A DNA stretch of 64,000 nt from Patescibacteria group bacterium (GCA_035510735.1 DATKGN010000006.1:65429-129428); one strand, 5' to 3'. Numbered from the stretch's first letter, positions 2,249 to 45,306 are shown. Made by a program: numbers and translations. The notes: generated by a model not told the origin, from the letters alone.

Positions 2249-3668
2249 GCGCCTCCTTCGTCCACGGATTGAAGTCCGTTTCCTGTTCATAGAGATATGC
2301 AGCCCGAAGTACCGTTTCCTCCTGCCAGTGATTTGCCATGATGGAAAGTCCTAAGGGAAGTCCCGTTTTTTTATCCCAATAGCATGGGACACTTATGCCC
2401 GTGAGTCCGGATAATGAACTGGGCTCGTTGAGTAAGTCAGTAAGCTCTCCAAAAAGAGGATTCCCTTCGCTCTCACCGAATTTGAGTGCCGGACCGGGTG
2501 TTGCGGTAGAAATGAGCAGATCATATTTTGAAAACAGCTGGGCAAAGTTTTTTATGTAGAGATTGCGTACTTTTTCCGCCAAAACGTAGTATTTATCCGC
2601 ATAACCCTTCGACAACGTAAAGGTGCCAAGCATAATCCTCCGTTTGGCTTCCGCACCGAACGTGCTTCTATTATGACCGTAACGGATGCCGTCATAGCGG
2701 GCTAAGTTGCTACTAACTTCGCTCCGTTGGACGACGGTATAGACGCCGACTGCATAATCGGGATTGAGTATGGTGTTGTCTTCTAATTGATCTGAAAGGG
2801 CAACCTTCTCTACTGTTGCACCATTCTTTTCAAACAGTTTTCCCGCTTCTTCAACGGATTTCTCGGTTTGTGTACCTTTCAACTGCGGGTGGTCCATGTA
2901 GCAGATGCCGATCTTCAGTCCCTTCACTCCTTTTTTGAGATTTGAGGCGTAATCGGGCACCGGCAATTCTCCGGTCGTTGCGTCATACGGATCTTTCCCT
3001 GCGATGACAGATAGAAGTATTGCCGCATCCTCGACCGTTTTAGTCATGGGGCCCGGTGAATCCAGGGAGCTTCCCATTGCCACAACCCCCGTGCGGGGCA
3101 CGCGGCCATAGGTGGGCTTCAACCCCACCGTCCCGCACCATGCGGATGGGATGCGGATAGAGCCTGCGGTTTCGCTTCCCAATGCCGTGATGCACATGTT
3201 AGCGGCAACAGCTGCTGCGCTTCCACCGGATGAACCTCCGGGCACGTGAGCTAAATTATTCGGATTTTTTGTCGGGCCGAAATCAGAGGTTTCGGTACTG
3301 CTGCCATGCGCCCAAGCATCCATGTTGGTTTTGCCAACGACCACGCCACCTGCCTTCTTAAGCCGTGACGTGACGGTCGATTCGTACGGCGGGTTGAAGC
3401 CTCTGAGAACATTCGAGGATGCCGTGGTTTCCAACCCAACCGTCAGAAAATTATCTTTGACCGCAACCGGCACACCCGCAAGCGGCGTATCCAATAGTTT
3501 CTCAGCTTGACTAACCGCTTCAGTATTGAGAGCGAGGTACGCATTAAGCTCTTTATTTTTGCCGGCAATCGCCTCCGACACATCAGCATAAAGCTCCTTA
3601 TGGGAAATCTCTTTGGATTTGAGTTTTTTAACGGCAGACGCAAGTGTAAGCGTGTTCAATTTTTTCAT
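2241..3668 (-). CDS. gatA: Glu-tRNA(Gln) amidotransferase subunit A (amidase signature family)
   Basis: 475 aa with a Gly/Ser-rich amidase signature ([13 protein letters not shown]). Ordered gatC-gatA-gatB. Confidence 0.9.
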
Positions 3669-7264: not shown

Positions 7265-8017
7265 TCAGATCTTGTGAAGGATTACTTCGCGGGCGCGGGT
7301 TGCAAGGGTGTCATCAAGAGATCTCAGTGTTACATGTTTGTCATATTTCATCTCCAACGCCTTCCCAATAAGCCAGTCGGCGATCATCGGGTTTTTAGGC
7401 AGGAGCGGTCCGTGAAAATACGATCCCACCGAATTTTTATACACCGCGCCTTCGTACCCATCTTCGCCATTATTACCGTAACCCTTGATCACTTTCGCAA
7501 GCGGCTTCATTTTAGGTCCGAGCGTCGTCCGCCCCCCGTGATTTTCAAATCCGACAATCGTCTTCCCTTCAAACCCCGGTAAGTTGATAATTTTGGCGGC
7601 GACATTGCCGATACACCGTTTTGCTTGATCGCCGGGGTGGATGGTCACAAGATCAAAAATACCAGCGCCGGGGATATCCTTTCCCTGATACGGGCGGTAA
7701 TAATGACCGACAAACTGGTAGGCAGCACAGACAAATAGCGCAGGGATCCAGCTCTCTACCATCTTGGCAACGACAGGGCCTTTATTGCCTAAGAAATCTT
7801 CGGATGCGAGTTTCTGCTGCCGGTCCTGAGCACCTCCCATGAACAAAAGGTCACAGGATTTGAGTTTACCGATCTTTGTCTCGAGTGTGACCGGTACAAT
7901 GGTCACATCGATACTCCGCCACTGGCACCGGCGCTCAAGGACAATAATATTCCCCCGGTCTCCGTACGTACTCATGAGGTCAGGATAGAGCCACGCGATG
8001 TTTAATTTATAATCCAT
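7265..8017 (-). CDS. gatD: Lipid II isoglutaminyl synthase glutaminase subunit (CobQ-type GATase)
   Basis: MDYKLNIAWLYPDLMSTYGDRGN... is a typical GatD N-terminus, with the catalytic Cys context FVCAAYQ. Paired with murT. Start trimmed to the internal Met. Confidence 0.8.
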   Translation of the reverse strand: MDYKLNIAWLYPDLMSTYGDRGNIIVLERRCQWRSIDVTIVPVTLETKIGKLKSCDLLFMGGAQDRQQKLASEDFLGNKGPVVAKMVESWIPALFVCAAYQFVGHYYRPYQGKDIPGAGIFDLVTIHPGDQAKRCIGNVAAKIINLPGFEGKTIVGFENHGGRTTLGPKMKPLAKVIKGYGNNGEDGYEGAVYKNSVGSYFHGPLLPKNPMIADWLIGKALEMKYDKHVTLRSLDDTLATRAREVILHKI

Positions 8018-8128: not shown

Positions 8129-9424
8129 TTACAGTATTTTTCTCCCCCCTACAATTTTCCTCACTTCGAGCATTGCCGAATAGGTCGATAAAACATATAA
8201 GATGCCGCCCTGCGGCGTAAGTTGCAGGCCCTGTTTTATAGCGTGCCGCAGGTCCGGTTCCACATGCGGTTTCCTCATTTCGCCGGCTGAATATTGTACA
8301 CGGATCGCCATATCATATACGCGGTCGCCCGTTACAACAACTTCCACATTTTTCGGAACCGTTTCAAAATCCACGTCCCAAATCCAACTCACGTCGCGTC
8401 CGTCAGGTATCCGGTCGTTAAGGGCGAAAAGTATTGCCGCGGGCTTACTTTCAAGCACCGTCCGCAAGGACGCATTAAACCCGGCAGGATTTTTCGAAAG
8501 AAATACTTTGATTTTTTTGTCGGCGACGGCAAATTCTTCCTGACGCCCGAATGCGGGCGCAAATCCGGTTAACGCAGTCGTAATGTGATCGTCGGTGATA
8601 TGACACTCGCGGGCAGTAAGGACGGCAGCGAGCGTATTGTAGCGGTTGTAGAGACCCGGGAGCGGTGACTGCCATGACGAGAGATCCAATTTTGGCCTCG
8701 TCTCACCGCAGACGCTGCAAAACCATTCTCCGATATGGGAAAAATAATTTACTTTGTAGGAAAGCCGTGCGCCGCAAAAGAGACAAAATGTCGAATCCGT
8801 CGCATGCTCCATTTTGGGGGCAGCAAGCGATGGGTCGTCAAGACCGAAATACTTCACCTTCGCCTTCACATCTTTTGCAAGAGAACTAACCAGCGGATCA
8901 TCGGCGTTCAGAATAAGCGTGGTTCTCTCATCAATAGTGCGTAGAGCTTTTTGCCATTTTTCCGCAATCACGTCGACCTCGCCATAACGGTCCAACTGAT
9001 CACGGAAAAGATTAAGGATGACGATGAATTTTGGCGCAATGTAGCGCATTACAATGGGGAGCGAGTTTTCATCGATCTCAAAAACCCCGAAGTCTCCGTT
9101 CACACGTCCACCACGGGTCGTATGTTCAATACAGGCCGATACGACACCATTGAGGAGATTAGCTCCACTTTTATTATGGACGACGGATTTTCCCTCTTTC
9201 TCTAAAATCGTTTTTATCATGAGGGACGTTGTCGTCTTGCCGTTTGTGCCGGCAACGAGAATTATCCCGTCTGTAATATGCGTTCCGAATTCACCAAGAA
9301 TGTGAGGCGACATCATGAGGGCAATCTCTCCGGGCCAGGTCGCACCGGCACCCAGATGAAAGGTTTTACTTGTCCACGAAACGAATTTACCTGCCGCTAC
9401 AGTCAGCCGATGCTTGAAGCTCAT
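8129..9424 (-). CDS. murT: Lipid II isoglutaminyl synthase, Mur-ligase-like subunit
   Basis: Mur ligase P-loop AGTNGKTTT plus a Cys4 ribbon CLFCG...CSVCG. 431 aa, adjacent to gatD. Confidence 0.85.
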   Translation of the reverse strand: MSFKHRLTVAAGKFVSWTSKTFHLGAGATWPGEIALMMSPHILGEFGTHITDGIILVAGTNGKTTTSLMIKTILEKEGKSVVHNKSGANLLNGVVSACIEHTTRGGRVNGDFGVFEIDENSLPIVMRYIAPKFIVILNLFRDQLDRYGEVDVIAEKWQKALRTIDERTTLILNADDPLVSSLAKDVKAKVKYFGLDDPSLAAPKMEHATDSTFCLFCGARLSYKVNYFSHIGEWFCSVCGETRPKLDLSSWQSPLPGLYNRYNTLAAVLTARECHITDDHITTALTGFAPAFGRQEEFAVADKKIKVFLSKNPAGFNASLRTVLESKPAAILFALNDRIPDGRDVSWIWDVDFETVPKNVEVVVTGDRVYDMAIRVQYSAGEMRKPHVEPDLRHAIKQGLQLTPQGGILYVLSTYSAMLEVRKIVGGRKIL

Positions 9425-11568: not shown

Positions 11569-13382
11569 GGTTTTGCTCCTTTCACAAGCCAATCTTTAAA
11601 GTCATTATACTCCTGACTGTTTACAATGTCATGTTTTGTGGCCCACCCCCGCCTCGCGACTGATACGCCGTATTTCATGAGGATCATTTGATCAACTGCA
11701 TGTGCATCGGTGTCAATTGAAAACCGCAAATTTTGCTTTTTTGCATCGTAGACAATGTTGTCCGGCAAATCGAGGCGTGATGGATGAGCATTGATTTCAA
11801 GAGCGATATTCTGTTTTTTACATGCCTCAAATATCAAATCCCAGTCGTATTCAACCCCCTCGCGTTTGCCTAAAAGTCGTGTCGTTGGATGTCCGAAAAT
11901 GCGCACTTTTTCGTGAGACGTAAGAGCGGTAACGACTCTGCGGGTCATAACTTCGCGGCTTTGGTTAAAACTCGAGTGCACGGAAACGACAACCGCGTCT
12001 ACATAATCGAACGCGCTATCGGGTAGTGCTAATTTCCCATCAGGTAGTATATCTACTTCACACATGAGGAACATTTGCGGCAGCCCCGCCGAAGCCTTGC
12101 GAAGGGGGGTACGAGTTTTGAGCACTTTTTGTACCCATGAGTAATATTTATGTTCATAATCATCCTTTCGTCTTTTCATTATCTCAACTATTTGTTCCTC
12201 AGTGTGATTTCCCACACTCGGATTATGATCGCTAAAGCCAACATAGTCGTATCCTAACCGCGCCGCTTCCGATAAGTAGAGATCAGCACTTTGTGCGCCC
12301 ACGTCATGGGATGATTCAAGATCATAACTAGAGTGAATATGGAGGTCACCGCGAATATCCGGAAGTTCTACAAGATGCGGCAGTTTGCCGTGGATAGCAG
12401 CCTCAATTTCCCCACGATCCTCACGAAGTTCAGGCGGTATCCACGGCAACTTAATTGCCTCATAGAAGGCTTTCTCCGTCGGATATTCTGATAGTTTATT
12501 GGTTTTCGTATTTTTAATACCGTATTCATTGAGCGATTTCCCCTGATTTAGAGCGAGGGATCGTAATTTGATATTATGATTTTTCGAACCCGTAAAGTAC
12601 TGAAGCATGGCGCCGTACGCTTCCGGCTTCTGCACGCGAAGATCAACTTGTTTCCCGTTATGTAGAAGCAGCGATGCACCTGTCGGACCTTTTTCGATCA
12701 ATTTTTGATGTGGGTAGGTGATGAAACGTTCAATAACAGTCTCGGGTTCAGTTGTAGCAACGGAAATATCGATATCGCCGATCGTTGAAACCTGCCGCCG
12801 CAAGCTCCCTAAGGTATCGATATGTTTAACCCCGCCCCCGGCTTTGACAAAATTGATAACATCGAGTGCCACCTGATCGGCTTCCGAGAGCACCATGCGG
12901 TTTTCTTTAATAGCGCCTTTTTTATACGTTTCGATATTAGCGAGGATGTCAGCCTCGGATTTCTCTCCGAACCCCTCCATTGGAGCAATTTTGTGGCCCA
13001 CGGCCGCCTTCTCCAGATCCTCTATAACCGTTTGCGCCTTATTGAGTTTTAATTCACTGACAAGTTTATATGCCTTTTTCGGTCCGATCCCCGGCACTAA
13101 GAGAAGCGGGTAAATAGATGCCGGTAATTTTCCCAAAACCTCTTCAAAATGGCGTACATGACCGGTCCTGAAAAGCTCATCAAGATGTTTTTGCAGCGTC
13201 TCACCAACCCCCGGAATCTCTTTTAATTTTCCGTCATTCCACAAATCCTTCACCTCACTCGTCAGGTGTTCAACGCTGTCGGCCGCGCGTTCATAGGCAA
13301 TGATCTTAAATCGATTTTCATTCAAAATCAGATAAGCGGCGGCAACTTTCCGGAGAAGCTCTGCAATTTCTAAATTTGTCAT
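11565..13382 (-). CDS. polX: Family X DNA polymerase with C-terminal PHP domain (PolX)
   Basis: N-terminal HhH/polymerase-beta-like region (GIGPKKAYKL, GSLRR) and a C-terminal PHP His cluster (HIHSSYDL..., SDHNP...). 605 aa. Confidence 0.85.
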   Translation of the reverse strand: MTNLEIAELLRKVAAAYLILNENRFKIIAYERAADSVEHLTSEVKDLWNDGKLKEIPGVGETLQKHLDELFRTGHVRHFEEVLGKLPASIYPLLLVPGIGPKKAYKLVSELKLNKAQTVIEDLEKAAVGHKIAPMEGFGEKSEADILANIETYKKGAIKENRMVLSEADQVALDVINFVKAGGGVKHIDTLGSLRRQVSTIGDIDISVATTEPETVIERFITYPHQKLIEKGPTGASLLLHNGKQVDLRVQKPEAYGAMLQYFTGSKNHNIKLRSLALNQGKSLNEYGIKNTKTNKLSEYPTEKAFYEAIKLPWIPPELREDRGEIEAAIHGKLPHLVELPDIRGDLHIHSSYDLESSHDVGAQSADLYLSEAARLGYDYVGFSDHNPSVGNHTEEQIVEIMKRRKDDYEHKYYSWVQKVLKTRTPLRKASAGLPQMFLMCEVDILPDGKLALPDSAFDYVDAVVVSVHSSFNQSREVMTRRVVTALTSHEKVRIFGHPTTRLLGKREGVEYDWDLIFEACKKQNIALEINAHPSRLDLPDNIVYDAKKQNLRFSIDTDAHAVDQMILMKYGVSVARRGWATKHDIVNSQEYNDFKDWLVKGAKP

Positions 13383-36024: not shown

Positions 36025-37197
36025 TTAGTTTTTCTTTTGCAAAATATAAAACTGACGTTTTACGATTGCCTGCGGCCGACTGTATTCTATCGGTCCATCC
36101 ACGATAGTATATCCGAGGTTTTCACACATGTCAACAACTTTTTTCACGAAGTACACTCTGCCCAAAACAGCATATGCGGGCAGCGCAATAACGATCCTGC
36201 CATTTTCCTTCAAAATTTTATGCCAATCACGAAGGCAGCCTATATACAGTTTTTCTAAGCCTTTGATAATATTTTTTATCTTTTGACTGTCCAACGTCTT
36301 TTGATTCGCGATGCTTGTAGCACCCATGAATGGTTCTGTAACGATGGCATCAACGGAATTTGCGACGATATGCTCCGATATATGAACGGCATCCGCCGTA
36401 ACACAAGCGCCGATTGAGCCTCTGGTGCCAGGGAATAGTTGTACCAACCAATCCAAATTCTTCTTGGCGCGGTCAACAATATCGGCTGATACATCCGACC
36501 CCATAACACTCCATGAGGTCATATATGCTTCCGCAAGGATCGTTCCCATCCCGCAAAACGGATCAAGAAGCACCGGGTGAAAATCTTGGTTTAGTGACTT
36601 CGTGTTCGTTGGGTGCGGATACGCAATATTCACAATCATCCGTGCCACCTTCGGCGGCAGCATCCCGGCTTTGGCATCTGCATAGGGCCGTCCGTAATCG
36701 CGAGTATTCCATTCTTCAAATGGCTGTACAGCCAATGTAGTCCCAACAATATAGGATTCATTGTGTTTGACCACAACGACCTCCTGTACATTTCCTTTAT
36801 CAATAACGACCGTCGAGAGCGCATTTCCATGAGCGGGCGTAACGTAGCGCGTTCGGACAGCCTGCTGTTCAAGCAACTCTTTTGTGCGCGCTGTCAGCGT
36901 TTTTACGGAGAGGTCAAAACCGTAAATGCTAAAGCCGAATGTCACTGATTTAACCCGCGTATCAATAAAAGATATAACGGACTCGGGAGTCACTTCGGAA
37001 ACCTGACCAACAACGCGTGCTATTTTAACTGCTCCGCCTAATTTACCCATCAATTGACCGGCATCGATTTTTTCCTCCGATTCTATTTGAGCAATTTCTT
37101 CGGTCAATACGTTCACATCGGGAAAAAAAGTCTGAAGCTCTCGGAGTGCCAACTGCGGCGTTCGTCCGAAGATGACAATATAGCGTTCTCTCGCCAT
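36025..37197 (-). CDS. THUMP-domain RNA methyltransferase (Trm14/RlmL-like)
   Basis: Motif I LLDPFCGMGTILAEA and motif IV-like VTEPFMG. N-terminal THUMP-like region. 390 aa. Confidence 0.7.
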   Translation of the reverse strand: MARERYIVIFGRTPQLALRELQTFFPDVNVLTEEIAQIESEEKIDAGQLMGKLGGAVKIARVVGQVSEVTPESVISFIDTRVKSVTFGFSIYGFDLSVKTLTARTKELLEQQAVRTRYVTPAHGNALSTVVIDKGNVQEVVVVKHNESYIVGTTLAVQPFEEWNTRDYGRPYADAKAGMLPPKVARMIVNIAYPHPTNTKSLNQDFHPVLLDPFCGMGTILAEAYMTSWSVMGSDVSADIVDRAKKNLDWLVQLFPGTRGSIGACVTADAVHISEHIVANSVDAIVTEPFMGATSIANQKTLDSQKIKNIIKGLEKLYIGCLRDWHKILKENGRIVIALPAYAVLGRVYFVKKVVDMCENLGYTIVDGPIEYSRPQAIVKRQFYILQKKN

Positions 37198-37200
37198 GAA

Positions 37201-37509
37201 TTAAACAATCGCAACAATTTCAAGCCGAGTAAGCTGTGCACGAAAACCCATCTGACGACGGTAGCGTACCTTCTGCTTATAACGTCGGATTTCAATTTTA
37301 TCTCCCTGTTCCTGGGCGAGAATTTTGGCCTTAACCGTTGATCCCTTCACGAGCGGTGTCCCGATATGGGTTTTTGTGCCTTCACTTGTCAATAAAACAT
37401 GGTCAAAATCTACCGTTTCGCCGGCCGATCCGTCGATTTTATCGACAAGGATAACGTCGCCAACTGTAACTTTATATTGCTTCCCTGAAATCGTAACTAT
37501 CGCTAACAT
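37201..37509 (-). CDS. rplU: 50S ribosomal protein L21
   Basis: MLAIVTISGKQYKVTVGDVILVDKIDG... Confidence 0.9.
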   Translation of the reverse strand: MLAIVTISGKQYKVTVGDVILVDKIDGSAGETVDFDHVLLTSEGTKTHIGTPLVKGSTVKAKILAQEQGDKIEIRRYKQKVRYRRQMGFRAQLTRLEIVAIV

Positions 37510-37533
37510 ATGCTCCGTATTGTATCAAGAGAT

Positions 37534-38616
37534 TTACCCGATTGCAATGGTGGACTCATCCGTTCTCCCCCGTTCCAGTGCCCATAAAAATCCGAATGCA
37601 ATCGATGAAGAAAGTATTGAACTGCCGCCGTATGAGATAAACGGCAGAGTAATACCCGTAATCGGAATAAGCCCCATATTCATGCCGGTGTTTATAAAAA
37701 TCTGAGAGAGGAGCATGGAAAAAAGCCCGAGTGAATAGACAAAAATTCCGGCCTCCTGACGGATTCCGCGAAAATACGGCTGGATAATACGGAACAGAAG
37801 CGCGATATAGCCAGCAAATACCATAATACCGCCCGCAAACCCCAACTCTTCAATAAGTGAGGCAAAAATAAAATCGGTATGATACTCCGGTAAAAACCGT
37901 AAATGACTCTGAGTCCCGCGCCCCAGACCGCGGCCGAACAACTGCCCGCTCCCGACGGCGATCATCGCCTGAAGCGCATTGTATCCCGCTCCTTTGGGAT
38001 CGATAGCGGGATTAAGGAACGTCAAAATGCGTTGTTTTTGGTATGGTAAGAGCACAAACCACGCGCCGGGGAGAAGAAGTGCCATACACAATATAACGGT
38101 TAACAAAATGGACATCGGCAACCCTCCCGCCAAAAGCATCGCCAGCCAAAAACAACTATAGACAATACTGCTGCCTAAGTCTGGTTGCTTAAAAACCAAT
38201 ATAAATGGTATGAGGAATAAAATAATATGGAGGGGTAAATTCTGAAGCTTCCTGGGGCTGTAACGAATGATAAAATAGGTAAATGCCAAGAGGAATAACG
38301 GTTTTGCAAGTTCCGACGGCTGAAATTGTGCACTCCCGAGGGCGATCCACCGAGTTGCGCCGCGGATATTCGGTCCGATATACGATAATGCCAGAAATAA
38401 TATTCCGATTACATATCCAATCGGCGCAAACCATCTGATCACGAGCGCATCAATTCGGGAACAAAGAAAAAGAAAAAGAAATCCGACAAATAAATACGCT
38501 AATTGCTGGAAGAATAAGGCTTTACTTACCGTGAGAAGTAAGAATAATCCGAAACAACCCAAATATATCAGAAGGAGTACGATTACCCAGTCGATAGTTG
38601 CAAAGAATTTCCCCAT
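37534..38616 (-). CDS. SEDS-family peptidoglycan glycosyltransferase (RodA/FtsW-like)
   Basis: 360 aa, about 10 TM helices, SEDS C-terminal motifs. A second SEDS gene lies in the dcw cluster. Confidence 0.8.
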   Translation of the reverse strand: MGKFFATIDWVIVLLLIYLGCFGLFLLLTVSKALFFQQLAYLFVGFLFLFLCSRIDALVIRWFAPIGYVIGILFLALSYIGPNIRGATRWIALGSAQFQPSELAKPLFLLAFTYFIIRYSPRKLQNLPLHIILFLIPFILVFKQPDLGSSIVYSCFWLAMLLAGGLPMSILLTVILCMALLLPGAWFVLLPYQKQRILTFLNPAIDPKGAGYNALQAMIAVGSGQLFGRGLGRGTQSHLRFLPEYHTDFIFASLIEELGFAGGIMVFAGYIALLFRIIQPYFRGIRQEAGIFVYSLGLFSMLLSQIFINTGMNMGLIPITGITLPFISYGGSSILSSSIAFGFLWALERGRTDESTIAIG

Positions 38617-41552
38617 GTCAGTTTCGTCGCAAGCGTCTCTTTTTGTATATACGCCAGGAGCTCTTTTGTAAAGTCTTTATATTCACTCGGAAGCTCAATA
38701 ATCACGCGTTCATCTATTTTACACCCTTTTTCTTTCCGGAGCATTTGAATTTGACGGACCACGTCGCGTACCATTCCTATTTGTACGTCTTGATTTCCAA
38801 CATCTGACTGTCCACCAACGGAATAATAGTCCGTACTAACCTCATTTTTTCCTTCATAAATTAATTCATAAACATTTGCTTCAGATAATACAATTTTCTT
38901 TACAGCTTCAGTTAGCCCTCGAGGTCCCCGGTAATTGAGTTTTTTAAATGGAATTCTTACTTTCACGTTTGCTTGCTTACGAAATGCAAGTAAAAGTGAA
39001 GCAACCGTTCGACCGTCAGTCATCGCTTTCTCAAGTTCAGCATCGACTTTACCGTCTTCCGGCCAATCCGCAAGATGAACTGATTCCTCTCCTGTCAAAT
39101 TCATATACATTTCATCAGCAATAAATGGTGTAAAGGGAGCCAACAATTTAGTTAATGTAACCAACACTTCAAACATCGTTGCAAAACAAGCGTTCTTATC
39201 GACTGAATTATCGACGGTCGGGCCTACACGGTCACGAGATCTTCGAACGTACCATTGGGATAAATTGGTCACAAAAGTTTCAATTGCATTCGCTGCTGTC
39301 GCGGCATCATAGACTTCAAGAGATTTAGTCGTAAGCTTGATAAGCGCATGTAATTCACTCAATATCCAGATATCAAGGACATTTGATGATTTCGAGGTAA
39401 CGGCGCCTGGACTCCAGGAGTCAACGGTCGCATAGGTCACAAAGAAGTTATACACATTCCACAAAAGCAAATGAAACTTCCGCCTTGTCTCGTCGGCGAG
39501 TTTATACCCGAACAGTATATTTTGCTCCGGATTGTGCTTTACGAACATCCAACGCATTACGTCGGCTCCGATCTTATCCGCTCCTTCATTAAACTCGATC
39601 GCATTCCCCCATGATTTATGCATGGGTCTGCCGTCTTCGCCGAGCATCGAAGCATAACCTAATACCGTCTTAAAACAGGTTTTCTGCTCAAGGACTGTCG
39701 ACATTGCTATCATGGAATAGAACCAATTTTTAAATTGGCCGGGGAATGATTCCGTAATAAAATCTGCGGGGTACCACTGTCTCCAATATGCTTTATCCGA
39801 TGTGTAACTTAATTTGTTTGTCATGGGATCGATGAGCGTTGAAAACCCGACGATACCTGCATCCAACCAAACGTTTCCGACGTCATTAAGACGTGAAACC
39901 GTCTCCCCGCACTTTTCACAGCGGATTTTTACTTCATCAATAAAGGGTTTATGTGGGGAATGTCCGTCAAACTGATTCCAACCTGCAACTGCCTTTTCTT
40001 TTAACTCTTCCTTGCTGCCGATAACGGTAAAGTTCCCACATTTTTTACATTCATAGATCGGAAGCGCCAGCCCCCAATACCGATTCGGCTTACTGATAAG
40101 CCAGTCATGCATATTGGAGAGCCAATCCAATTCACGGTCAAGTCCGAAAGCAGGCTTCCAGGTGATTTGCCTGGCAGTATCCATCATCTGCTCTCGAAGC
40201 GTCTTGCCGCTCGACTTTTCCTTTGTGTCCATCGCGATGTACCATTCATCCGCAACTTTCCAGACAAGCTCGGTTTTACACCGCCAACAGGCCGGATACC
40301 GATGCATATAATTTTCTACTTTGAAAAGACATAAGTTACCCTTGGCATTTCGTTCGGTTAAATAATCGATAATAATCTCCGGATGCTTTTTTGCATTTTT
40401 CCCGGCCAGAAAACCGAGCGATGGTAAATAGTCAGCATTATCGGCAATAACGGGTATCATGGGGAGACCATACTTTTTCCCTAACTGAAAATCCTCCGAC
40501 CCCGCACTCACGGCCGTATGCACGAGTCCCGTCCCTTCAGTTGTCGTCACAGGAAGAAGAAGCGGGTCAGTCGCAACAACTGTATGGAATGTTTTAGGAT
40601 TATCTTTAGCTACTTTTGCAACTACTTCAAGATCGTCAAAAGGCCCGGTATAGAATAATCCAACTAATTCTTTTCCTTTCACGGTTTTTACAATTTGCTT
40701 ATATTCTTTACCGAACACTGCCTCAACCCGTTCCTTCACCATCCAGAATTTGTTGCCGGTCATCCCCTCAACCAGACTGTAATCAAGCGTTTTATCGACA
40801 GCGATTGCGATATTCGCCGGTATTGTCCATGGAGTCGTTGTCCAAACCAATAAGTATTCATTTTTTCTTTCGACGATGGGAAATGCAAGATAGACGGATT
40901 TATGCGAGACTTCCTTATAATCCTCAGTCAGCATTTCATGCTGGGAAATTGCCGTTTCGCATCGCGGACACCACGGCACACTTTCTCTTCCTTTATAAAT
41001 CCATCCTTTTTCAAAACAGGTTTTGAGAAAATGCCAAATCATGTAATTGTTCTCATCACTCATGGTAAAGTACGAATGATCCCAGTCGACGATGTATCCC
41101 AGGCGCTTGCTTTGTTCGGATTGAATGGAACTAAATTTCCGGACGCGCTCTTTACAGAGCTCGACAAATTTAGCGACGGATGCTTTTGGGTCACCCGAAA
41201 CGAGATTTTCTATGTCTTTCTTATTCCGTATTTGTAATTCCTTCTCGACCTCTACTTCAACCCACAACCCCTGGCAGTCAAATCCGTTTTGGAACCGCTC
41301 TTTTCGCCCGCGAAGTGTCCAAAACCGCTGCCATAAATCCTTATATGTCCGTCCCCACGCATGGTGAACGCCCATGGGGTTATTTGCCGTTATGGGGCCG
41401 TCAAGGAATGAAAACCGTTTATCTGAGCCATCGTTTCTATGAAGATACTTGGCAACGATTCCTTTTTCATACCACTCAGACAATAACCGTTTTTCCATTT
41501 CAGGAAAATTGTTATTCGGCGTTACCGGTTTAAATGTATGTTTCTTTGCCAT
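38583..41552 (-). CDS. ileS: Isoleucyl-tRNA synthetase
   Basis: 989 aa with a PMGVHHAWGR (HIGH-type) motif, a KMSKS-type region, and zinc-binding Cys clusters. Confidence 0.9.
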   Translation of the reverse strand: MAKKHTFKPVTPNNNFPEMEKRLLSEWYEKGIVAKYLHRNDGSDKRFSFLDGPITANNPMGVHHAWGRTYKDLWQRFWTLRGRKERFQNGFDCQGLWVEVEVEKELQIRNKKDIENLVSGDPKASVAKFVELCKERVRKFSSIQSEQSKRLGYIVDWDHSYFTMSDENNYMIWHFLKTCFEKGWIYKGRESVPWCPRCETAISQHEMLTEDYKEVSHKSVYLAFPIVERKNEYLLVWTTTPWTIPANIAIAVDKTLDYSLVEGMTGNKFWMVKERVEAVFGKEYKQIVKTVKGKELVGLFYTGPFDDLEVVAKVAKDNPKTFHTVVATDPLLLPVTTTEGTGLVHTAVSAGSEDFQLGKKYGLPMIPVIADNADYLPSLGFLAGKNAKKHPEIIIDYLTERNAKGNLCLFKVENYMHRYPACWRCKTELVWKVADEWYIAMDTKEKSSGKTLREQMMDTARQITWKPAFGLDRELDWLSNMHDWLISKPNRYWGLALPIYECKKCGNFTVIGSKEELKEKAVAGWNQFDGHSPHKPFIDEVKIRCEKCGETVSRLNDVGNVWLDAGIVGFSTLIDPMTNKLSYTSDKAYWRQWYPADFITESFPGQFKNWFYSMIAMSTVLEQKTCFKTVLGYASMLGEDGRPMHKSWGNAIEFNEGADKIGADVMRWMFVKHNPEQNILFGYKLADETRRKFHLLLWNVYNFFVTYATVDSWSPGAVTSKSSNVLDIWILSELHALIKLTTKSLEVYDAATAANAIETFVTNLSQWYVRRSRDRVGPTVDNSVDKNACFATMFEVLVTLTKLLAPFTPFIADEMYMNLTGEESVHLADWPEDGKVDAELEKAMTDGRTVASLLLAFRKQANVKVRIPFKKLNYRGPRGLTEAVKKIVLSEANVYELIYEGKNEVSTDYYSVGGQSDVGNQDVQIGMVRDVVRQIQMLRKEKGCKIDERVIIELPSEYKDFTKELLAYIQKETLATKLTWGNSLQLSTG

Positions 41553-41592
41553 AAAAAAACCATCCTTATTTCATTATACGTTAAGGATGGTT
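41553..41592 (-). terminator. Intrinsic terminator of the ileS T-box leader (AACCAUCCUUA...UAAGGAUGG then U7), immediately before the ileS ATG
   Basis: Stem of about 11 bp and a U-tract, read directly. Confidence 0.6.
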
Positions 41593-41856
41593 GTCAAGCT
41601 TGTGGTAAGCCTGTCGAACCATGGTACCACCTTATTTTAGGGTTTAGAGCTTAGAGTTTAAAGTTTAGTTATCCTAAACTCTAATGCCCTACACTCTAAC
41701 CCCTCTTATTATTGCTATTACGGGCATTCCCGGAACGGTCTACTCGCGCCCCTCGTAGCTTTAGCGAAGTGGGGCTTTCCACTTTCCAAATTACGTAAGT
41801 GCTTTTCTTCGTTCAGCTCGTCCGTTGATGATCGGACTCAATCGCATGTCTCATAA
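41553..41856 (-). promoter_or_regulatory. T-box riboswitch leader with Ile specifier (AUC)
   Basis: Specifier hairpin gtccg-AUCAUCAA-cggac at 41820-41837. T-box core GGUGGUACC at 41623-41631. Antiterminator helices UAAGG/CCUUA and AUGGUU/AACCAU flank a UGGUACC bulge. These are mutually exclusive with the downstream terminator. Confidence 0.65.
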
Positions 41857-41857
41857 A

Positions 41858-41886
41858 AGTATACAGGAATTGGATATAATTGACAA
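41858..41886 (-). promoter_or_regulatory. Candidate promoter TTGTCA-N17-TATACT for the ileS leader
   Basis: Hexamers read from the sequence. Confidence 0.4.
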
Positions 41887-41898
41887 ATTTTCACTCGC

Positions 41899-42240
41899 CT
41901 ACTCTTCAGATGTGGTTGCCGGCAAATTATTACTTCCGAAGAGTGGTGGTAAACCTAATATTCCTGGTAATACCTGGTCATCGTTCGTATACTCTGTTGG
42001 TAGCCGAACAACTGCAGCCGCGTGGGCTGCGATCTCCCGCAAGTAAACATCCTCGTCTTCAGGAGCTAACCCGTGCTTTTCCTGAACATGATGCGCAATC
42101 AGATCAAAGTATTTTTTATGATGCTCTCCCAGCGATGCGATAAACTGAACATCGAGTTTGATTAAATCCAGATCTGTTTCCGTCTTAACTTGTTCGTGAT
42201 GAGTCATGGTAGATTGTTGCCGCAGGAACGTAGGATCCAA
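41899..42240 (-). CDS. Hypothetical protein (113 aa, acidic)
   Basis: ORF between the ftsZ-downstream gene and the ileS promoter. Confidence 0.4.
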   Translation of the reverse strand: MDPTFLRQQSTMTHHEQVKTETDLDLIKLDVQFIASLGEHHKKYFDLIAHHVQEKHGLAPEDEDVYLREIAAHAAAVVRLPTEYTNDDQVLPGILGLPPLFGSNNLPATTSEE

Positions 42241-42278
42241 TTGGCTTGATCAATAAAAGAATCAACCTTCAGTATCTC

Positions 42279-42746
42279 TTATGCACTTTTTACAAACTCA
42301 AGAATTTGGCCTGCCCAAAATACAGCGGCTTCCGTATTTTTCCCGCGATATTGAACAAAACGACTGTCAACTCCTTCAATTGATATTTCTGAAACGTTAG
42401 GACGGTATTCATCATATAATATTCTTAGATCAGCTAATTTTCCGTCATACCCCTCTTTTGTAGAAAAACTCATTTCTAAATAATCTGATGAGCGATTCTG
42501 ATTATTGTTTACCGTGTAATAGATACCGTTTTTTGGAACCCAAACTGACCTTCTCTCTAATGGCATGTGAAATTCTGTCTTCTGAAGGTCTAAATACATC
42601 TCAACGACCTTTTCCTGAAATATTGGATCTGATCGAAAGGCAGCTAAATATCCGTCAATGAGCGGTTTTGCTTCATCACGGATGCGCTCTCCATCAAGCG
42701 GAACAATATTATCCTTATTTGGCGAAAGACGTAATAAATCACTCAC
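42279..42746 (-). CDS. Hypothetical protein downstream of ftsZ; N-terminus trimmed
   Basis: The 246-aa ORF in the track overlaps ftsZ by 242 nt. ftsZ ends with the conserved FtsZ tail DIPAFLR, so this gene probably starts at the GTG at 42744-42746. Confidence 0.4.
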   Translation of the reverse strand: MSDLLRLSPNKDNIVPLDGERIRDEAKPLIDGYLAAFRSDPIFQEKVVEMYLDLQKTEFHMPLERRSVWVPKNGIYYTVNNNQNRSSDYLEMSFSTKEGYDGKLADLRILYDEYRPNVSEISIEGVDSRFVQYRGKNTEAAVFWAGQILEFVKSA

Positions 42747-42777
42747 AGGAATATTATAGGGTATATTAGAGGAATTA

Positions 42778-43950
42778 TCAACTCTTCTGCCGCAGGAATG
42801 CGGGGATGTCGAATTCGTCCTCCTCAGGGGGAAGTTCGTCTTTCGGTGTCGGAGGCGTATACGTAGCAGGCGGTTGATTCGGTATATTTTGTTGCTGCGG
42901 CGTACCATATAACCCCTGCGGCTGCTGCGGCGCGGAAGGTCGTCCGGAAACTGCACCATAGGACGGTCTGCCCGATAATTCACGGAGGCGCCACTTTGTT
43001 TCATCAAAGCCAGTTGCAATAACAGTAATTTTTACCTGATCGACAAGGCTCTCGTCAATCGTTGCCCCGAAAATAATGTTCGCATCCGGGTCAACTGCCG
43101 CAGATATAAGCTTGGCGGCTTCATCGACTTCCGCCATGGTAAGGTCCGCTCCACCCGTTATATTGAAAAGGACACCTTTTGCACCGTCAACAGATATTTC
43201 AAGAAGCGGAGATGCAACCGCACTACGGGCAGCTGTCGTGGCTCTGTTTTCACCAACCCCAGTACCGATTCCCATCAGCGATGACCCGGCATTCGTCATG
43301 ATAGTCTTTACATCGGCAAAATCGACATTGATAAGACCCGGCATGGTGATAAGATCGGCAATCCCCTGCACTCCCTGCCCCAACACGGAATCGGTGACGC
43401 GAAATGCTTCAAGAAGCGTCATTTTCTTATCTATAACCTCAAGAAGCCGTTGATTCGGAATAACGATGAGCGTATCGACTTTATCTTTTAAATTACTAAT
43501 CCCCTCTTCCGCCGCAAGCATGCGCCGTGTTCCTTCAAACTGAAACGGTTTGGTCACGACCGCGACAGTGAGTGCCCCGAGTTCTTTGGCAATCTCGGCA
43601 ACAATCGGGGTTGCACCTGTTCCGGTCCCACCACCCTCACCACAGGTTAAAAACACCATATCTGTGTCACGCAGGAAGTCGTTTATTTTATCTTTGGATT
43701 CCTCTGCTGCCTGTTTGCCGATCTCAGGCTTCCCCCCCGCTCCTAAACCACGGGTTAAATTCTCCCCGATCTGTACTTTGGTTGTTGCCAAACAGGTGAG
43801 GAGTGCCTGCGCATCGGTGTTGATCCCTAAGAATTCAACTCCCGCGATTTGATTGAGGGAGATCATGGAATTGATCGCATTGCATCCGCCACCGCCTATA
43901 CCAATCACTTTAATTTTAGCGAATCGTGCAATATCCGGCTTAATAAGCAT
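42778..43950 (-). CDS. ftsZ: Cell division GTPase FtsZ
   Basis: [11 protein letters not shown], the tubulin signature GGGTGTG, and a C-terminal DIPAFLR peptide. Confidence 0.9.
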
Positions 43951-44004
43951 ACGTATACTCCGACAGGGGCAAGTCTGAAGGTCTTCTCATTACAAAACGA
44001 AACA

Positions 44005-45306
44005 TCAGGGCATGAATGACTTTACCAGATCTATAAGCTTTCCTGCAATACCCTTTATTTGTACTTTCTCTCCGATTTTACCAAAGTTGCTTAAAAATGC
44101 ACTACCCTCATACTTTTCTACCTTACTTCCGTAATGGAGAAGTCCAATACTTGTTCCATATGCGGGCCCAACTATCTCATCAATAAGCCCTGTTACGCGT
44201 TTCGGCATACCTATATGGACGGGCATTGCCAAATTTCGTCTCGCACTATCAACTGCTCCGACGGTCATCGCTCCGCCACCGGTTATAACGATACCTGACG
44301 GAGTCATCCCGCCGAATCCGCTCCGTTTGAGTTCAAGAGCAACCATAGTAAATATCTCGTTTAATCGTGGTTTTATAATACCCTCAACAAGCGTTTTCCT
44401 TGATAGTGTGCGCAGTTCTTCAGGAAGACCTAACGAAGAAACATCCAACTCGTCAGATTTATCGGATTTCGATGATTTTGTCCGTTCTTCTTCATCAGAT
44501 AACGTCGGAACTTTCGGCGTCTGGCCCAGTAACAGTTTAACTTTCTCCGCGCTTTCAAGCGATATGCGGAGTCCCGCTGCTAAGTCTTTTGTAATGTTAA
44601 TAGCGCCGATAGGAATTACCGATGAATACGATAACGCCCCTTCAACGAATATTGCAACATCTGTTGTCCCGCCGCCAATATCAATAAGAAGTACACCAAG
44701 CTCTTTTTCCGTATCTGATAGACTTGATTCAGCAGACGCCAGTCCTCCGAATACCATCCCGCTCACTTCTACTCCTAATTCCTCCACACATTTCCGTAAA
44801 TTCCGCATCGCGGTTGCACCGCCTGTTACGAGGTGAGTATCGACTTCAAGCCGTACTCCGGTCATACCGATTGGATCCTGAATGCCGTCCTGACTGTCAA
44901 CAATATACCCTCGTGGAAGCACATGAAGAATTTCCCGTGATGACGGCAAAGATACTGCTTTCGCCGCCTCAATAACCCGCCTGACATCCTGATCGGATAT
45001 TTCCTTTTCAGGTTCAGCAACGGCAACAACACCATGTGAGTTCTGAGATCCTATATGACTTCCACCGACGGAGATGTATGCCTTACCTACGGAAGCGCCA
45101 GCCATCCGTTCCGCAGCCTCAAGTGATTGGGAGATCGCGGCTGTGGCTTCATCTATATTGACGACCTGACCCTTGCGAAGTCCCTTACTTGGCACAGAGG
45201 AAACTCCGATAACCTGTGCGTCGCCCTCTTCAGAAAATGTGGCAATTAATGTAGTAATTTTTGAAGTACCGACATCAATCCCTGAAACGATATGGTCTCG
45301 CGCCAT
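44005..45306 (-). CDS. ftsA: Cell division protein FtsA (actin-like ATPase)
   Basis: 433 aa with N-terminal GIDVGTSK and a second GGGT motif. Confidence 0.9.
   Translation of the reverse strand: MARDHIVSGIDVGTSKITTLIATFSEEGDAQVIGVSSVPSKGLRKGQVVNIDEATAAISQSLEAAERMAGASVGKAYISVGGSHIGSQNSHGVVAVAEPEKEISDQDVRRVIEAAKAVSLPSSREILHVLPRGYIVDSQDGIQDPIGMTGVRLEVDTHLVTGGATAMRNLRKCVEELGVEVSGMVFGGLASAESSLSDTEKELGVLLIDIGGGTTDVAIFVEGALSYSSVIPIGAINITKDLAAGLRISLESAEKVKLLLGQTPKVPTLSDEEERTKSSKSDKSDELDVSSLGLPEELRTLSRKTLVEGIIKPRLNEIFTMVALELKRSGFGGMTPSGIVITGGGAMTVGAVDSARRNLAMPVHIGMPKRVTGLIDEIVGPAYGTSIGLLHYGSKVEKYEGSAFLSNFGKIGEKVQIKGIAGKLIDLVKSFMP

What the first reader, a model, noticed from the sequence alone, without database searches (positions are those of the whole stretch)
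41553..41890. Isoleucine T-box riboswitch controlling ileS
The minus-strand leader upstream of ileS contains every expected T-box element, in order. A promoter TTGTCA-N17-TATACT. A specifier hairpin gtccg-AUCAUCAA-cggac, with Ile codon AUC followed by a purine. A long imperfect stem III hairpin at 41640-41700. The T-box core UAAGGUGGUACCAUGGUU. Its antiterminator helices A1 (UAAGG/CCUUA) and A2 (AUGGUU/AACCAU) flank a UGGUACC bulge; UGGU would pair with the tRNA-Ile 3' ACCA. The 3' strand of the antiterminator doubles as the 5' strand of a terminator (AACCAUCCUUA...UAAGGAUGG then U7) that ends at the ileS start codon. It is a clean, fully readable example. T-boxes are lineage-restricted, so its presence constrains the phylogenetic placement of this organism.
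Basis: seen in the sequence. Interest (0 to 1): 0.55.

Follow-up and report, generated by a model that had tools for sequence, protein, structure and literature searches.

The report
Short-stem isoleucine T-box before ileS
The leader of the isoleucyl-tRNA synthetase gene is a real tRNA-sensing T-box switch, but a stripped-down type missed by the standard Rfam model, and it sits in a candidate-phyla-radiation bacterium, where I found no T-box described in the searchable literature.

Summary
That test is misleading here.

Two covariance models built from unrelated metagenomic leaders hit only this spot in the 64 kb:
- decoding module: 69.6 bits, E 4e-13
- antiterminator: 35 bits, E 1e-6

Across 56-79 homologous leaders the helices are 96-98% paired, with heavy compensatory change.

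The architecture matches the "ultrashort Stem I" ileS T-boxes of Actinobacteria:
- a K-turn-like base
- an 18-nt hairpin with AUC-A in its apical loop
- Stem II with an S-turn
- Stem IIA and F-box
- a purine string, a long Stem III, and a UGGUACC bulge between helices A1 and A2

The output element differs from the actinobacterial one. It is a hairpin followed by U7 that runs directly into the AUG, and its 3' arm contains an SD-like AAGGA. The host is a Patescibacteria (Microgenomates, Gottesmanbacteria-related) MAG.

The same family is common in Patescibacteria-like metagenome contigs. There it carries Ile, Val, Asp and Asn specifiers, often lacks Stem III, and none of 19 sampled members reached Rfam's threshold.

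Verdict: a real T-box and a new variant of a known kind. No function was tested experimentally.

The parts
41858..41886 (-). Promoter: -35 TTGTCA (41881-41886), 17-nt spacer, -10 TATACT (41858-41863)
   Evidence: 10 of 12 matches. TATACT is conserved at the same distance upstream of Stem I in L001-L004, L006 and L171-L173. The transcription start site was not mapped.
41838..41847 (-). 5' strand of a K-turn-like (GA) motif at the base of Stem I: AUGC-GAUU-GA
   Evidence: Aligned to the family consensus aggCaUuUGA. The GC pairs with the GC of GAGCU (41815-41819). This 3-bp helix is 87% paired across 77 distinct leaders, with double changes at all 3 pairs. In the window itself 2 of the 3 pairs form; the third is U-U.
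41820..41837 (-). Ultrashort Stem I: GUCCG / CGGAC with apical loop AUCAUCAA
   Evidence: All 6 family Stem I pairs show compensatory changes and the helix is 95.6% paired.
41826..41829 (-). Specifier AUC (41827-41829, the second AUC of the loop) followed by the conserved purine A (41826)
   Evidence: The family model aligns the loop as UCAUCA against consensus uUAUCA. In correctly aligned family rows the loops are mostly YNAUCA. L173 has GUCCGA-CUAUCA-UCGGAU.
41815..41819 (-). 3' strand of the K-turn-like motif: GA + GCU
41733..41814 (-). Stem II: lower helix GAACG (41810-41814) / CGUUC (41733-41737), S-turn strands AAGAA (41805-41809) and AGUAGAC (41738-41744), and a lineage-specific distal insert of about 60 nt (41745-41805)
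   Evidence: Lower helix is 97.9% paired, and 4 of its 5 pairs show double changes. The AAGAA...AGUAGAC strands are almost invariant. The insert is absent or different in L001, L171 and L172.
41714..41732 (-). Stem IIA (CGGG-AAUG-CCCG, 41721-41732), F-box-like CGUAA (41718-41722) and invariant AGC (41714-41716), the presumed IIB pseudoknot partner
   Evidence: Invariant in all leaders. The M. tuberculosis F-box is CGUCA, with a 3-bp loop-linker pseudoknot (PMC11297988). The pseudoknot here is not resolved by covariation.
41703..41710 (-). Purine string AAUAAGAG (RAG / RRRxG motif) 5' of Stem III
   Evidence: The motif is described in PMC7583486 and PMC11297988.
41640..41703 (-). Stem III: long imperfect A+U-rich hairpin
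   Evidence: -32.2 kcal/mol, z = -6.8. It occurs once in the window. It is absent in the closest relatives L001, L171 and L172.
41582..41634 (-). Discriminator (antiterminator): A1 UAAGG/CCUUA, 7-nt bulge UGGUACC (41623-41629), A2 AUGGUU/AACCAU with a capped extension
   Evidence: Model R2 hit at 41579-41642, 35 bits, E 1e-6. A1 and A2 are 97.8% paired across 56 leaders; covariation score 0.707 against 0.249 when shuffled. Fold energy -14.9 kcal/mol.
41553..41592 (-). Terminator: AACCAUCCUUA, 13-nt loop, UAAGGAUGGUU, then the rest of the U7 run (41553-41559); the SD-like AAGGA lies at 41563-41567 in the 3' arm
   Evidence: The terminator state of the 3' region is -23.6 kcal/mol, against -17.5 with the antiterminator enforced. 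The element is almost identical in L171 and L172. A U-run follows the T-box in 67 of 72 family loci, against 28% of control windows.
38583..41552 (-). ileS (989 aa, type-2-like IleRS), the regulated gene. ftsW/rodA overlaps its end and rplU follows.
   Evidence: TIGR00392, 648 bits. Pfam domains.

Best explanation
This is a tRNA-Ile-sensing T-box leader, about 300 nt long, transcribed from TTGTCA-N17-TATACT.

The decoding half is the ultrashort-Stem-I design. A K-turn-like base supports an 18-nt hairpin that presents AUC-A in its apical loop to the GAU anticodon. Stem II, with its S-turn, and the Stem IIA/F-box element would buttress the codon-anticodon helix, as in the solved actinobacterial ileS T-boxes.

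The sensing half consists of the purine string, Stem III, and helices A1 and A2 around the UGGUACC bulge. UGGU would pair with the free 3' ACCA of uncharged tRNA-Ile and stabilise the antiterminator. Without that support, or with charged tRNA, the 3' strands of A2 and A1 re-pair downstream. This forms the more stable 11-bp hairpin followed by U7, and transcription stops just before the AUG.

The 3' arm of that hairpin contains the SD-like AAGGA, and the U-run abuts the AUG. The same helix could therefore also block initiation on full-length mRNA.

Shown: sequence elements, homology, covariation, relative fold energies, gene identity and host lineage.

Inferred: tRNA binding, termination, and any translational effect.
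For: Family models built without the window hit only this locus in the 64 kb:
- R1: 69.6 bits, E 3.6e-13
- R2: 35 bits, E 1.1e-6

Covariation:
- Decoding module: 95.7% paired, score 0.632, against 0.153 shuffled and at most 0.128 slid.
- Antiterminator: 97.8% paired, score 0.707, against 0.249 shuffled and at most 0.168 slid.

Specifier and gene identity:
- AUC sits in the apical loop of every ileS leader read by eye in the window's own clade, which gave 10 leaders, and in most correctly aligned family rows.
- Leaders with GUC precede ValRS. Leaders with GAC precede AspRS or PEP carboxylase.
- The downstream gene here is IleRS.

Output element:
- The terminator state is about 6 kcal/mol more stable than the antiterminator state.
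- A run of at least 5 U follows the T-box in 67 of 72 family loci, against 28% of control windows. For runs of at least 6 U the figures are 58 of 72 against 11%.
- In relatives such as L001, L002 and L006 the AUG lies about 20 nt beyond the U-run. There the hairpin cannot act by masking the start site.

Permissive Rfam filters also report RF00230 across the leader (model positions 1-219), with its well-aligned part in the 3' half (E 1.1e-4).
Against: - RF00230 is far below its gathering score.
- No tRNA-Ile gene is available to check the anticodon or base 73.
- Published ultrashort-Stem-I T-boxes are translational. The review PMC7583486 argues that transcriptional T-boxes need the long Stem I for fast tRNA capture.
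- The terminator stem is only moderately G+C-rich and has a 13-nt loop.
- A loose hairpin-plus-T scan shows no general enrichment of intrinsic terminators in this window.
- SD use in this genome appears weak, because many genes look leaderless. The AAGGA may therefore not matter.
Confidence: 0.78

Rival explanations
1. It is a purely translational T-box, like the actinobacterial ileS leaders. The hairpin at 41558-41592 would be an SD and start-site sequestrator. The U-run would be incidental, or a ribosome-standby or spacer element.
For: The decoding module has the architecture so far described only for translational T-boxes (PMC7583486, PMC12990946, PMC1262725). The SD-like AAGGA (41563-41567) lies in the 3' arm, and the AUG directly follows the hairpin and U-run. 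About 13 family members share the UUUUUUAUG junction.
Against: A U-run directly after the hairpin is conserved in 93% of family members, against 28% of control windows. Sequestration does not require such a run. In many members, including the 92%-identical relative L001, the start codon lies 15-130 nt beyond the hairpin and is not covered by it. Several 3' arms have no SD-like sequence, for example L088 and L121.
Confidence: 0.12
2. It is a canonical class I T-box, as the Rfam alignment implies. Stem I would be GAAG...CUUC (about 41766-41810), with the specifier position reading CCC-A (proline). The AUC hairpin would be irrelevant.
For: cmscan aligns the Stem I of RF00230 to that segment.
Against: That part of the alignment has low posterior probability, and the total is 30 bits against 93. 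The segment is a lineage-specific insert inside Stem II, and it is absent or different in L001, L171 and L172. The family model places Stem I on the AUC hairpin, with strong covariation. A Pro specifier would not fit an ileS gene.
Confidence: 0.02
3. It is a decaying relic that no longer regulates.
For: T-box loss does occur in this group. L045 and L054 keep only the 5' motif plus a terminator, and L031 and L040 have none. The closest relatives differ in Stem III and in Stem II inserts.
Against: Every conserved nucleotide and helix of the family is intact in the window. The discriminator and terminator are nearly identical in relatives whose IleRS is only 76-81% identical.
Confidence: 0.04

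Closest known systems
Actinobacterial ileS T-boxes with ultrashort Stem I ('class II', translational; M. tuberculosis 6UFG, N. farcinica 6UFM, M. smegmatis)
   Same: - They regulate ileS, here a type-2-like IleRS.
- The specifier AUC plus a purine sits in the apical loop of a short Stem I that has no elbow-binding platform.
- A K-turn lies at the base.
- Stem II carries an S-turn.
- A Stem IIA/B element has an F-box (CGUAA here, CGUCA in M. tuberculosis).
- A RAG purine string, Stem III and a UGGN bulge between A1 and A2 are present.
- A2 and Stem III carry insertions.

Sources: PMC7583486 and PMC11297988.
   Different: - The host is Patescibacteria, not Actinobacteria.
- The competing helix is followed by a conserved U7 run, so it looks like an intrinsic terminator rather than only an SD sequestrator.
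- Many family members lack Stem III.
- No direct sequence or model comparison with an actinobacterial leader could be run.
Canonical class I T-box leaders (Rfam RF00230; B. subtilis tyrS, glyQS; S. aureus ileS)
   Same: - The order of domains is the same.
- The T-box sequence, A1-bulge-A2 antiterminator, competing terminator with a U-run, Stem II/IIA/F-box and GA motif are all present.
- The logic is the same: uncharged tRNA turns expression ON.
   Different: - There is no distal Stem I: no AG bulge, no distal loop, no interdigitated T-loops.
- The specifier is in a hairpin loop rather than an internal loop.
- A1 is UAAGG rather than the consensus AGGG.
- The terminal A2 pair is A-U rather than the G-U wobble.
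- RF00230 scores 30 bits against a gathering score of 93.
ileS T-boxes reported in Chloroflexi (Dehalococcoides) and Deinococcus (PMC2494555)
   Same: These are ileS-linked T-boxes in non-Firmicute lineages. It is from my own knowledge, and not tested here, that those lineages are usually grouped with Patescibacteria in Terrabacteria. This fits an old ileS T-box.
   Different: I could not obtain their sequences, so their Stem I type and expression platform were not compared.

Membership tests
T-box riboswitch (general) | T-box sequence forming a 7-nt UGGNACC bulge between helices A1 and A2 | tested here: met
   UAAGG-UGGUACC-AUGGUU...AACCAU-CCUUA. R2 hit of 35 bits. A1 and A2 are 97.8% paired, with covariation, in 56 leaders.
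T-box riboswitch (general) | A mutually exclusive, more stable terminator or sequestrator that uses the 3' strand of the antiterminator | tested here: met
   AACCAUCCUUA is shared by both structures. Energies are -23.6 against -17.5 kcal/mol. The U-run is conserved across the family.
T-box riboswitch (general) | Specifier codon that matches the amino acid of the regulated gene and is followed by a purine | tested here: met
   AUC-A and IleRS by TIGR00392. Family members with GUC precede ValRS; those with GAC precede AspRS or PEP carboxylase.
T-box riboswitch (general) | Binds cognate uncharged tRNA through the anticodon and the 3' NCCA end | not testable with these tools
   No tRNA-Ile gene is present in the window or in the fetched loci. 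AUC/GAU and UGGU/ACCA complementarity is assumed from general bacterial tRNA-Ile features.
T-box riboswitch (general) | Reaches the Rfam RF00230 gathering score (93 bits) | tested here: not met
   No hit at gathering score. Permissive filters give 30 bits, E 1.1e-4. None of 19 homologous T-box loci reach it either.
Canonical class I T-box | Long Stem I with a distal platform (AG bulge plus distal loop) that stacks on the tRNA elbow, and the specifier in an internal loop | tested here: not met
   Stem I is an 18-nt hairpin (41820-41837) with the specifier in its apical loop.
Canonical class I T-box | K-turn (GA motif) at the base of Stem I | tested here: inconclusive
   GC-NNNN-GA ... GA-GC flanks Stem I. 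The closing helix covaries and is 87% paired. However, 4 nt rather than 3 separate the C-stem from the GA, and the 3D fold was not tested.
Canonical class I T-box | Intrinsic terminator as the expression platform | tested here: met
   An 11-bp hairpin followed by U7. U-runs are enriched across the family. Termination itself was not measured.
Ultrashort-Stem-I ('class II') ileS T-box | Specifier in the apical loop of a short Stem I that lacks elbow-binding elements | tested here: met
   The feature is described in PMC7583486 and PMC12990946.
Ultrashort-Stem-I ('class II') ileS T-box | Stem II with an S-turn, followed by a Stem IIA/B pseudoknot with an F-box | tested here: inconclusive
   The Stem II helices covary, and AAGAA/AGUAGAC, Stem IIA, CGUAA and AGC are invariant. 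The IIB pairing cannot be proven: its GC/GC core never varies, and the third pair forms in about 17 of 28 sequences (my reading).
Ultrashort-Stem-I ('class II') ileS T-box | Regulates translation through an SD sequestrator, with no terminator | tested here: not met
   The hairpin is followed by a conserved U7 run. An SD-like AAGGA does lie in its 3' arm, so a translational component is not excluded.
Ultrashort-Stem-I ('class II') ileS T-box | Match to the TBDB class II covariance model (translational_ILE.cm), or direct similarity to an actinobacterial leader | not tested
The 120 best IleRS homologues listed by the search that carry a source name are all Patescibacteria.

The most novel reading that the evidence does not exclude
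The window holds one member of a large, so far unannotated family of Patescibacteria (CPR) T-boxes. These combine the elbow-less ultrashort Stem I with an intrinsic terminator. Many also lack Stem III. They control ileS, valS, aspS and even an archaeal-type PEP carboxylase.

If they really act co-transcriptionally, two current generalisations fail. One is that transcriptional T-boxes need the long Stem I platform for fast tRNA capture. The other is that Stem III is indispensable for sensing the tRNA 3' end.

It would also place the ileS T-box in a further deep-branching lineage alongside Firmicutes, Actinobacteria, Chloroflexi and Deinococcus-Thermus.
Probability: 0.5. Interest if true: 0.75.

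Novelty: new variant of a known kind. Interest (0 to 1): 0.6.

Why it matters
Riboswitch-type regulation has hardly been documented in the reduced genomes of the candidate phyla radiation. My full-text searches pairing T-box with CPR, Patescibacteria or Microgenomates returned nothing.

Threshold-based Rfam annotation misses this whole family. TBDB searched for short-Stem-I T-boxes only in Actinobacteria (PMC7778990). tRNA-sensing control of aminoacyl-tRNA synthetases in CPR has therefore probably been overlooked.

Mechanistically, a minimal T-box that still ends in a terminator is a natural test case. It asks how much of the canonical RNA is really needed for a co-transcriptional decision. 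The Stem III-less relatives ask the same question about aminoacylation sensing.

For annotation, the two models built here, or equivalents, would recover these leaders.

Tried and rejected
1. Rfam at gathering score found only four tRNAs. Permissive filters gave a sub-threshold T-box hit plus spurious microRNA hits on the Stem III hairpin.

2. I considered that the Stem II insert hairpin (41748-41775) or Stem III is a dispersed repeat or MITE. Each occurs once in the window. The hairpin recurs only inside related T-box leaders.

3. I considered that the A2 cap (GGCUUACCACAAGCU) is an internal mimic of the tRNA ACCA end that masks the T-box bulge in the OFF state, as the fold suggested. I rejected this because L171 and L172 have the same discriminator with an unrelated cap.

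4. I tried to show that intrinsic terminators are used generally in this genome. The loose scan is not enriched over shuffles, so it is uninformative.

5. SD usage: many genes look leaderless, so the weight of the AAGGA is unclear.

6. The search for a tRNA-Ile partner found none in the window or in 45 loci.

7. I could not fetch an actinobacterial ileS leader for a direct model comparison. Sherwood 2015 and Vitreschak 2008 are not in the library.

8. The first MAFFT alignments of whole leaders were not structure-consistent. I replaced them with equal-geometry seed sets and covariance-model re-alignment.

9. Pfam gave nothing for the two small ORFs between ftsZ and the leader.

Full report
**Observation.**
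- TTGTCA-N17-TATACT at 41858-41886
- the hairpin GUCCG-AUCAUCAA-CGGAC at 41820-41837
- a long imperfect hairpin at 41640-41703, -32.2 kcal/mol, z = -6.8
- UAAGG-UGGUACC-AUGGUU at 41617-41634
- the complementary AACCAU-CCUUA at 41582-41592
- a second copy, UAAGGAUGGUU, at 41558-41568, which pairs with AACCAUCCUUA and is followed by a U7 run that ends at the ATG (41550-41552)

The ORF is isoleucyl-tRNA synthetase. It scores 648 bits on TIGR00392 against a cut-off of 621, and its next-best matches are the type-2 enzymes MupA and MupB. Pfam finds tRNA-synt_1, Anticodon_1 and DUF5915.

At gathering thresholds Rfam reports only four tRNAs in the window. With permissive filters on 901 nt, RF00230 appears at 41580-41818 with 30 bits against a gathering score of 93 (E 1.1e-4).
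- The 3' half aligns well: AGUAGAC, Stem IIA, the F-box region, Stem III, the T-box sequence and the 3' strand of the antiterminator.
- The long Stem I of the model is forced onto GAAG...CUUC (about 41766-41810). There the specifier position would read CCC. The AUC hairpin is left out.

The comparative evidence below shows that the criterion is inappropriate for this architecture.

**Relatives and host.**
- The IleRS is identical to an NCBI protein annotated 'isoleucine--tRNA ligase [Patescibacteria group bacterium]' on a 134-kb MAG contig. Every one of the 120 best homologues listed that carries a source name is from Patescibacteria, namely Gottesmanbacteria, Woesebacteria or Levyibacteriota.
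- Eighty genome loci with IleRS relatives were fetched. All informatively labelled ones are Microgenomates-group MAGs. Records titled 'uncultured Gammaproteobacteria' or 'Pseudomonadales' sit among them in the tree and look like placeholder labels.
- In an NJ tree of these proteins, every member of the window's clade has a homologous leader: L001 (92% aa identity), L002, L003, L004, L006, and L019, whose upstream region is truncated. Three further relatives fetched by exact protein look-up also have it: L171 (81%), L172 (76%) and L173 (76%).
- A Collierbacteria clade has it in part (L014, L018, L038, L049, L072). Within that clade, L045 and L054 keep only the -10 box, the 5' motif AAAAGCGUUUGU and a terminator, and L031 and L040 have none.
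- This pattern indicates vertical inheritance with repeated loss.

**Architecture from comparison.** Read side by side, the leaders share these elements:
- a -10 TATACT
- a conserved GC-NNNN-GA before, and GA-GCU after, a short hairpin whose stem changes freely: GUCCG/CGGAC, GGGAG/CUCCU, UCCCG/CGGGA, CUUCCA/UGGGGG, UUCCG/CGGAA, CCCGG/CCGGG and GGAG/CUCC
- an apical loop on that hairpin that always holds AUC
- a 5-bp helix that covaries (GAACG/CGUUC, GGAUG/CAUCC, GGGGG/CCCUC, GAAGG/CCUUC) and brackets AAGAA...AGUAGAC, which are the two strands of an S-turn
- an invariant CGGG-N4-CCCG hairpin followed by CGUAA-N-AGC
- a purine string AAUAAG
- an optional hairpin at the Stem III position
- the T-box sequence

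This is the layout published for the 'ultrashort Stem I' ileS T-boxes of Actinobacteria. [quoted passage not shown] They also have a Stem II S-turn that clamps the codon-anticodon helix, a IIA/B pseudoknot with an F-box (CGUCA in M. tuberculosis), a conserved RAG, and RRRxG-Stem III-AA (PMC7583486, PMC11297988, PMC12990946).

**A wider family.** I scanned metagenome contigs for the decoding-core pattern TAGACC-N3-YY-GGG-N3-4-GCCCGTRAYAGC. The scan returned 89 loci.
- Most are followed by an IleRS gene, usually of another subtype that is about 30% identical to the window's enzyme.
- Most carry a YNAUCA loop in a short hairpin flanked by UUGA...GAGCU.
- A few carry other specifiers that match other genes:
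  - GUC with ValRS: L111, L124, L135, L164
  - GAC with AspRS: L087, L093
  - GAC with an archaeal-type PEP carboxylase (TIGR02751): L090, L145
  - AAC with AspRS: L128
- The variable bulge base is C in L087 and L128, which would fit the G73 that I recall as usual for tRNA-Asp and tRNA-Asn (own knowledge, not tested here). It is U in nearly all Ile and Val leaders.
- The IleRS of one such contig (L141) has its nearest named relatives in Patescibacteria: Microgenomates CPR3, Saccharimonadia, Uhrbacteria and Parcubacteria. These members are therefore probably CPR too. I checked only that one.
- None of 19 T-box-bearing loci reaches the RF00230 gathering score.

**Statistical support.**
- Model R1 covers the K-turn-like helix, Stem I, the Stem II helices and Stem IIA. 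It was built from ten metagenomic leaders, none from the window's clade.
  - It hits the window once, at 41702-41849 (69.6 bits, E 3.6e-13), and nowhere else in 64 kb.
  - It aligns the loop as UCAUCA. The second AUC (41827-41829) is therefore the specifier, and A41826 is the following purine.
  - On 79 hits (77 distinct rows), 95.7% of cells pair. The covariation score is 0.632, against 0.153 in shuffles and at most 0.128 when partners are slid.
  - All six Stem I pairs, four of five lower Stem II pairs and all three K-turn-helix pairs show changes on both sides.
- Model R2 covers A1, the bulge and A2. It was built from 12 equal-length leaders.
  - It hits the window at 41579-41642 (35 bits, E 1.1e-6).
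  - On 56 leaders the helices are 97.8% paired. The score is 0.707, against 0.249 in shuffles and at most 0.168 when slid.
- These alignments are fitted to the models, which favours pairing. The slid controls and the number of distinct pair types argue that the signal is real.

**Expression platform.**
- In the window the antiterminator folds at -14.9 kcal/mol.
- The 3' region as a whole prefers the terminator state, at -23.6 kcal/mol against -17.5 with the antiterminator enforced. That is the usual default-OFF arrangement.
- L171 and L172 have almost the same discriminator and terminator sequence, including UUUUUUUAUGG, although their IleRS is only 76-81% identical.
- Across the family, a run of at least 5 U lies within 20-140 nt after the bulge in 67 of 72 loci, against 28% of control windows. 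For at least 6 U the figures are 58 of 72 against 11%. The run is preceded by a hairpin.
- In L001, L002, L006 and many others the start codon lies 15-130 nt beyond the U-run. There the hairpin cannot work by covering the ribosome-binding site.
- I therefore take transcription termination as the primary output.
- In the window, and in about a dozen other members, the U-run abuts the AUG. In the window, L003, L068 and a few others the 3' arm also holds an SD-like sequence, AAGGA at 41563-41567 in the window. An added translational block is plausible but unproven.
- Two caveats apply. Many genes in this window look leaderless, with a TAnAAT box 6-10 nt before the ATG. A loose terminator scan of the window is not enriched over shuffles.

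**Peripheral elements evolve quickly.**
- The window's 64-nt Stem III is absent in its closest relatives L001, L171 and L172. There AAUAAGAAG runs straight into UAAGUAAGG. It is also absent in more than 20 metagenomic members.
- The roughly 60-nt insert in the window's Stem II is also lineage-specific.
- Close relatives use two different terminator designs.
- The published view is that Stem III is indispensable for the discriminator (PMC7583486). The Stem III-less leaders are therefore worth testing, although the window itself has a Stem III.

**Comparison with what is known.**
- T-boxes are reported from Firmicutes, Actinobacteria, Chloroflexi, Deinococcus-Thermus and a few Proteobacteria (PMC2494555; bioRxiv 10.1101/2020.06.17.157016).
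- Actinobacterial ileS T-boxes have sequestrators instead of terminators (PMC1262725). Reviews up to 2026 treat ultrashort-Stem-I T-boxes as translational (PMC7583486, PMC12990946).
- TBDB searched for that class only in Actinobacteria (PMC7778990).
- Full-text searches pairing T-box with CPR, Patescibacteria, Microgenomates or Parcubacteria found nothing.
- The key papers Sherwood 2015 and Vitreschak 2008 could not be read. From memory, the Sherwood abstract says 'many', not all, actinobacterial leaders are translational. The combination of an ultrashort Stem I with a terminator may therefore not be wholly unprecedented.
- I could not obtain an actinobacterial leader for a direct model comparison.

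**Verdict.** The element is a new variant of a known kind: an actinobacterial-type minimal decoding module joined to a terminator-type platform, in a candidate-phyla-radiation genome, and invisible to the curated Rfam threshold. Function rests on homology, covariation and thermodynamics. No binding or termination was measured.

Noticed in passing
window, minus-strand gene starts at 6279, 9424, 10877, 16372, 19188, 33778, 51911, 53356: A TAnAAT-like box ends 6-10 nt before the ATG and there is no SD sequence. This suggests that many genes of this genome are expressed from leaderless mRNAs.
   Followed up: no
L090 (about 8929-9180) and L145 (about 7275-7430): The same short-Stem-I T-box family, with a GAC (Asp) specifier in the apical loop, precedes an archaeal-type PEP carboxylase (TIGR02751). 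Here a T-box controls an anaplerotic enzyme that feeds aspartate synthesis.
   Followed up: partly
L001 854-919, L006 2904-2965, L068 2918-2971, L171 500-530, L172 505-535, and more than 20 metagenome loci: These T-boxes have no Stem III at all. The purine string AAUAAGAAG runs directly into the A1 strand. The literature describes Stem III as indispensable for the discriminator (PMC7583486).
   Followed up: partly
window 41748-41775; L006 2846-2872 and a second copy; L141 about 11885-11915: A hairpin module, CCCCAC-UUCGCUAAAGCUACGA-GGGG, recurs at different positions (the Stem I-II linker or the distal part of Stem II) in related T-box leaders. It occurs nowhere else in the window. Its function is unknown.
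   Followed up: partly
L045 and L054, about 100 nt upstream of ileS (locus position about 2900-3000): These are T-box remnants. The -10 box, the 5' motif AAAAGCGUUUGU and a terminator hairpin are kept, but the whole sensing core is deleted. Sister genomes L031 and L040 have no trace of a T-box.
   Followed up: partly
L128 2746-2906: An AAC (Asn) specifier and a UGGC bulge precede a bacterial-type AspRS. This could fit a non-discriminating AspRS that serves tRNA-Asn.
   Followed up: no
L147 10484-10801 (same sequence in L155): An Ile-specifier T-box terminator is followed 8 nt later by a tRNA-Val(CAC) gene. The IleRS gene lies about 1.2 kb further on.
   Followed up: no
L001 about 905-935, L002 about 295-315, L006 about 2960-2985: An alternative terminator design is used here. 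A downstream (GU)GGUACC pairs with the palindromic GGUACC of the T-box bulge itself, rather than with the 3' strands of A2 and A1. L001 is 92% identical to the window in IleRS but uses this other design.
   Followed up: partly
window 36025-45306: The gene order is ftsA, ftsZ, two small ORFs with no Pfam match, the T-box, ileS, ftsW/rodA (which overlaps the end of ileS), rplU, and a methyltransferase-like gene. ileS is thus embedded in a cell-division cluster.
   Followed up: partly
window 41637-41699: Sub-threshold Rfam 'microRNA' hits (mir-1245 and others) on both strands simply reflect the long A+U-rich Stem III hairpin.
   Followed up: yes
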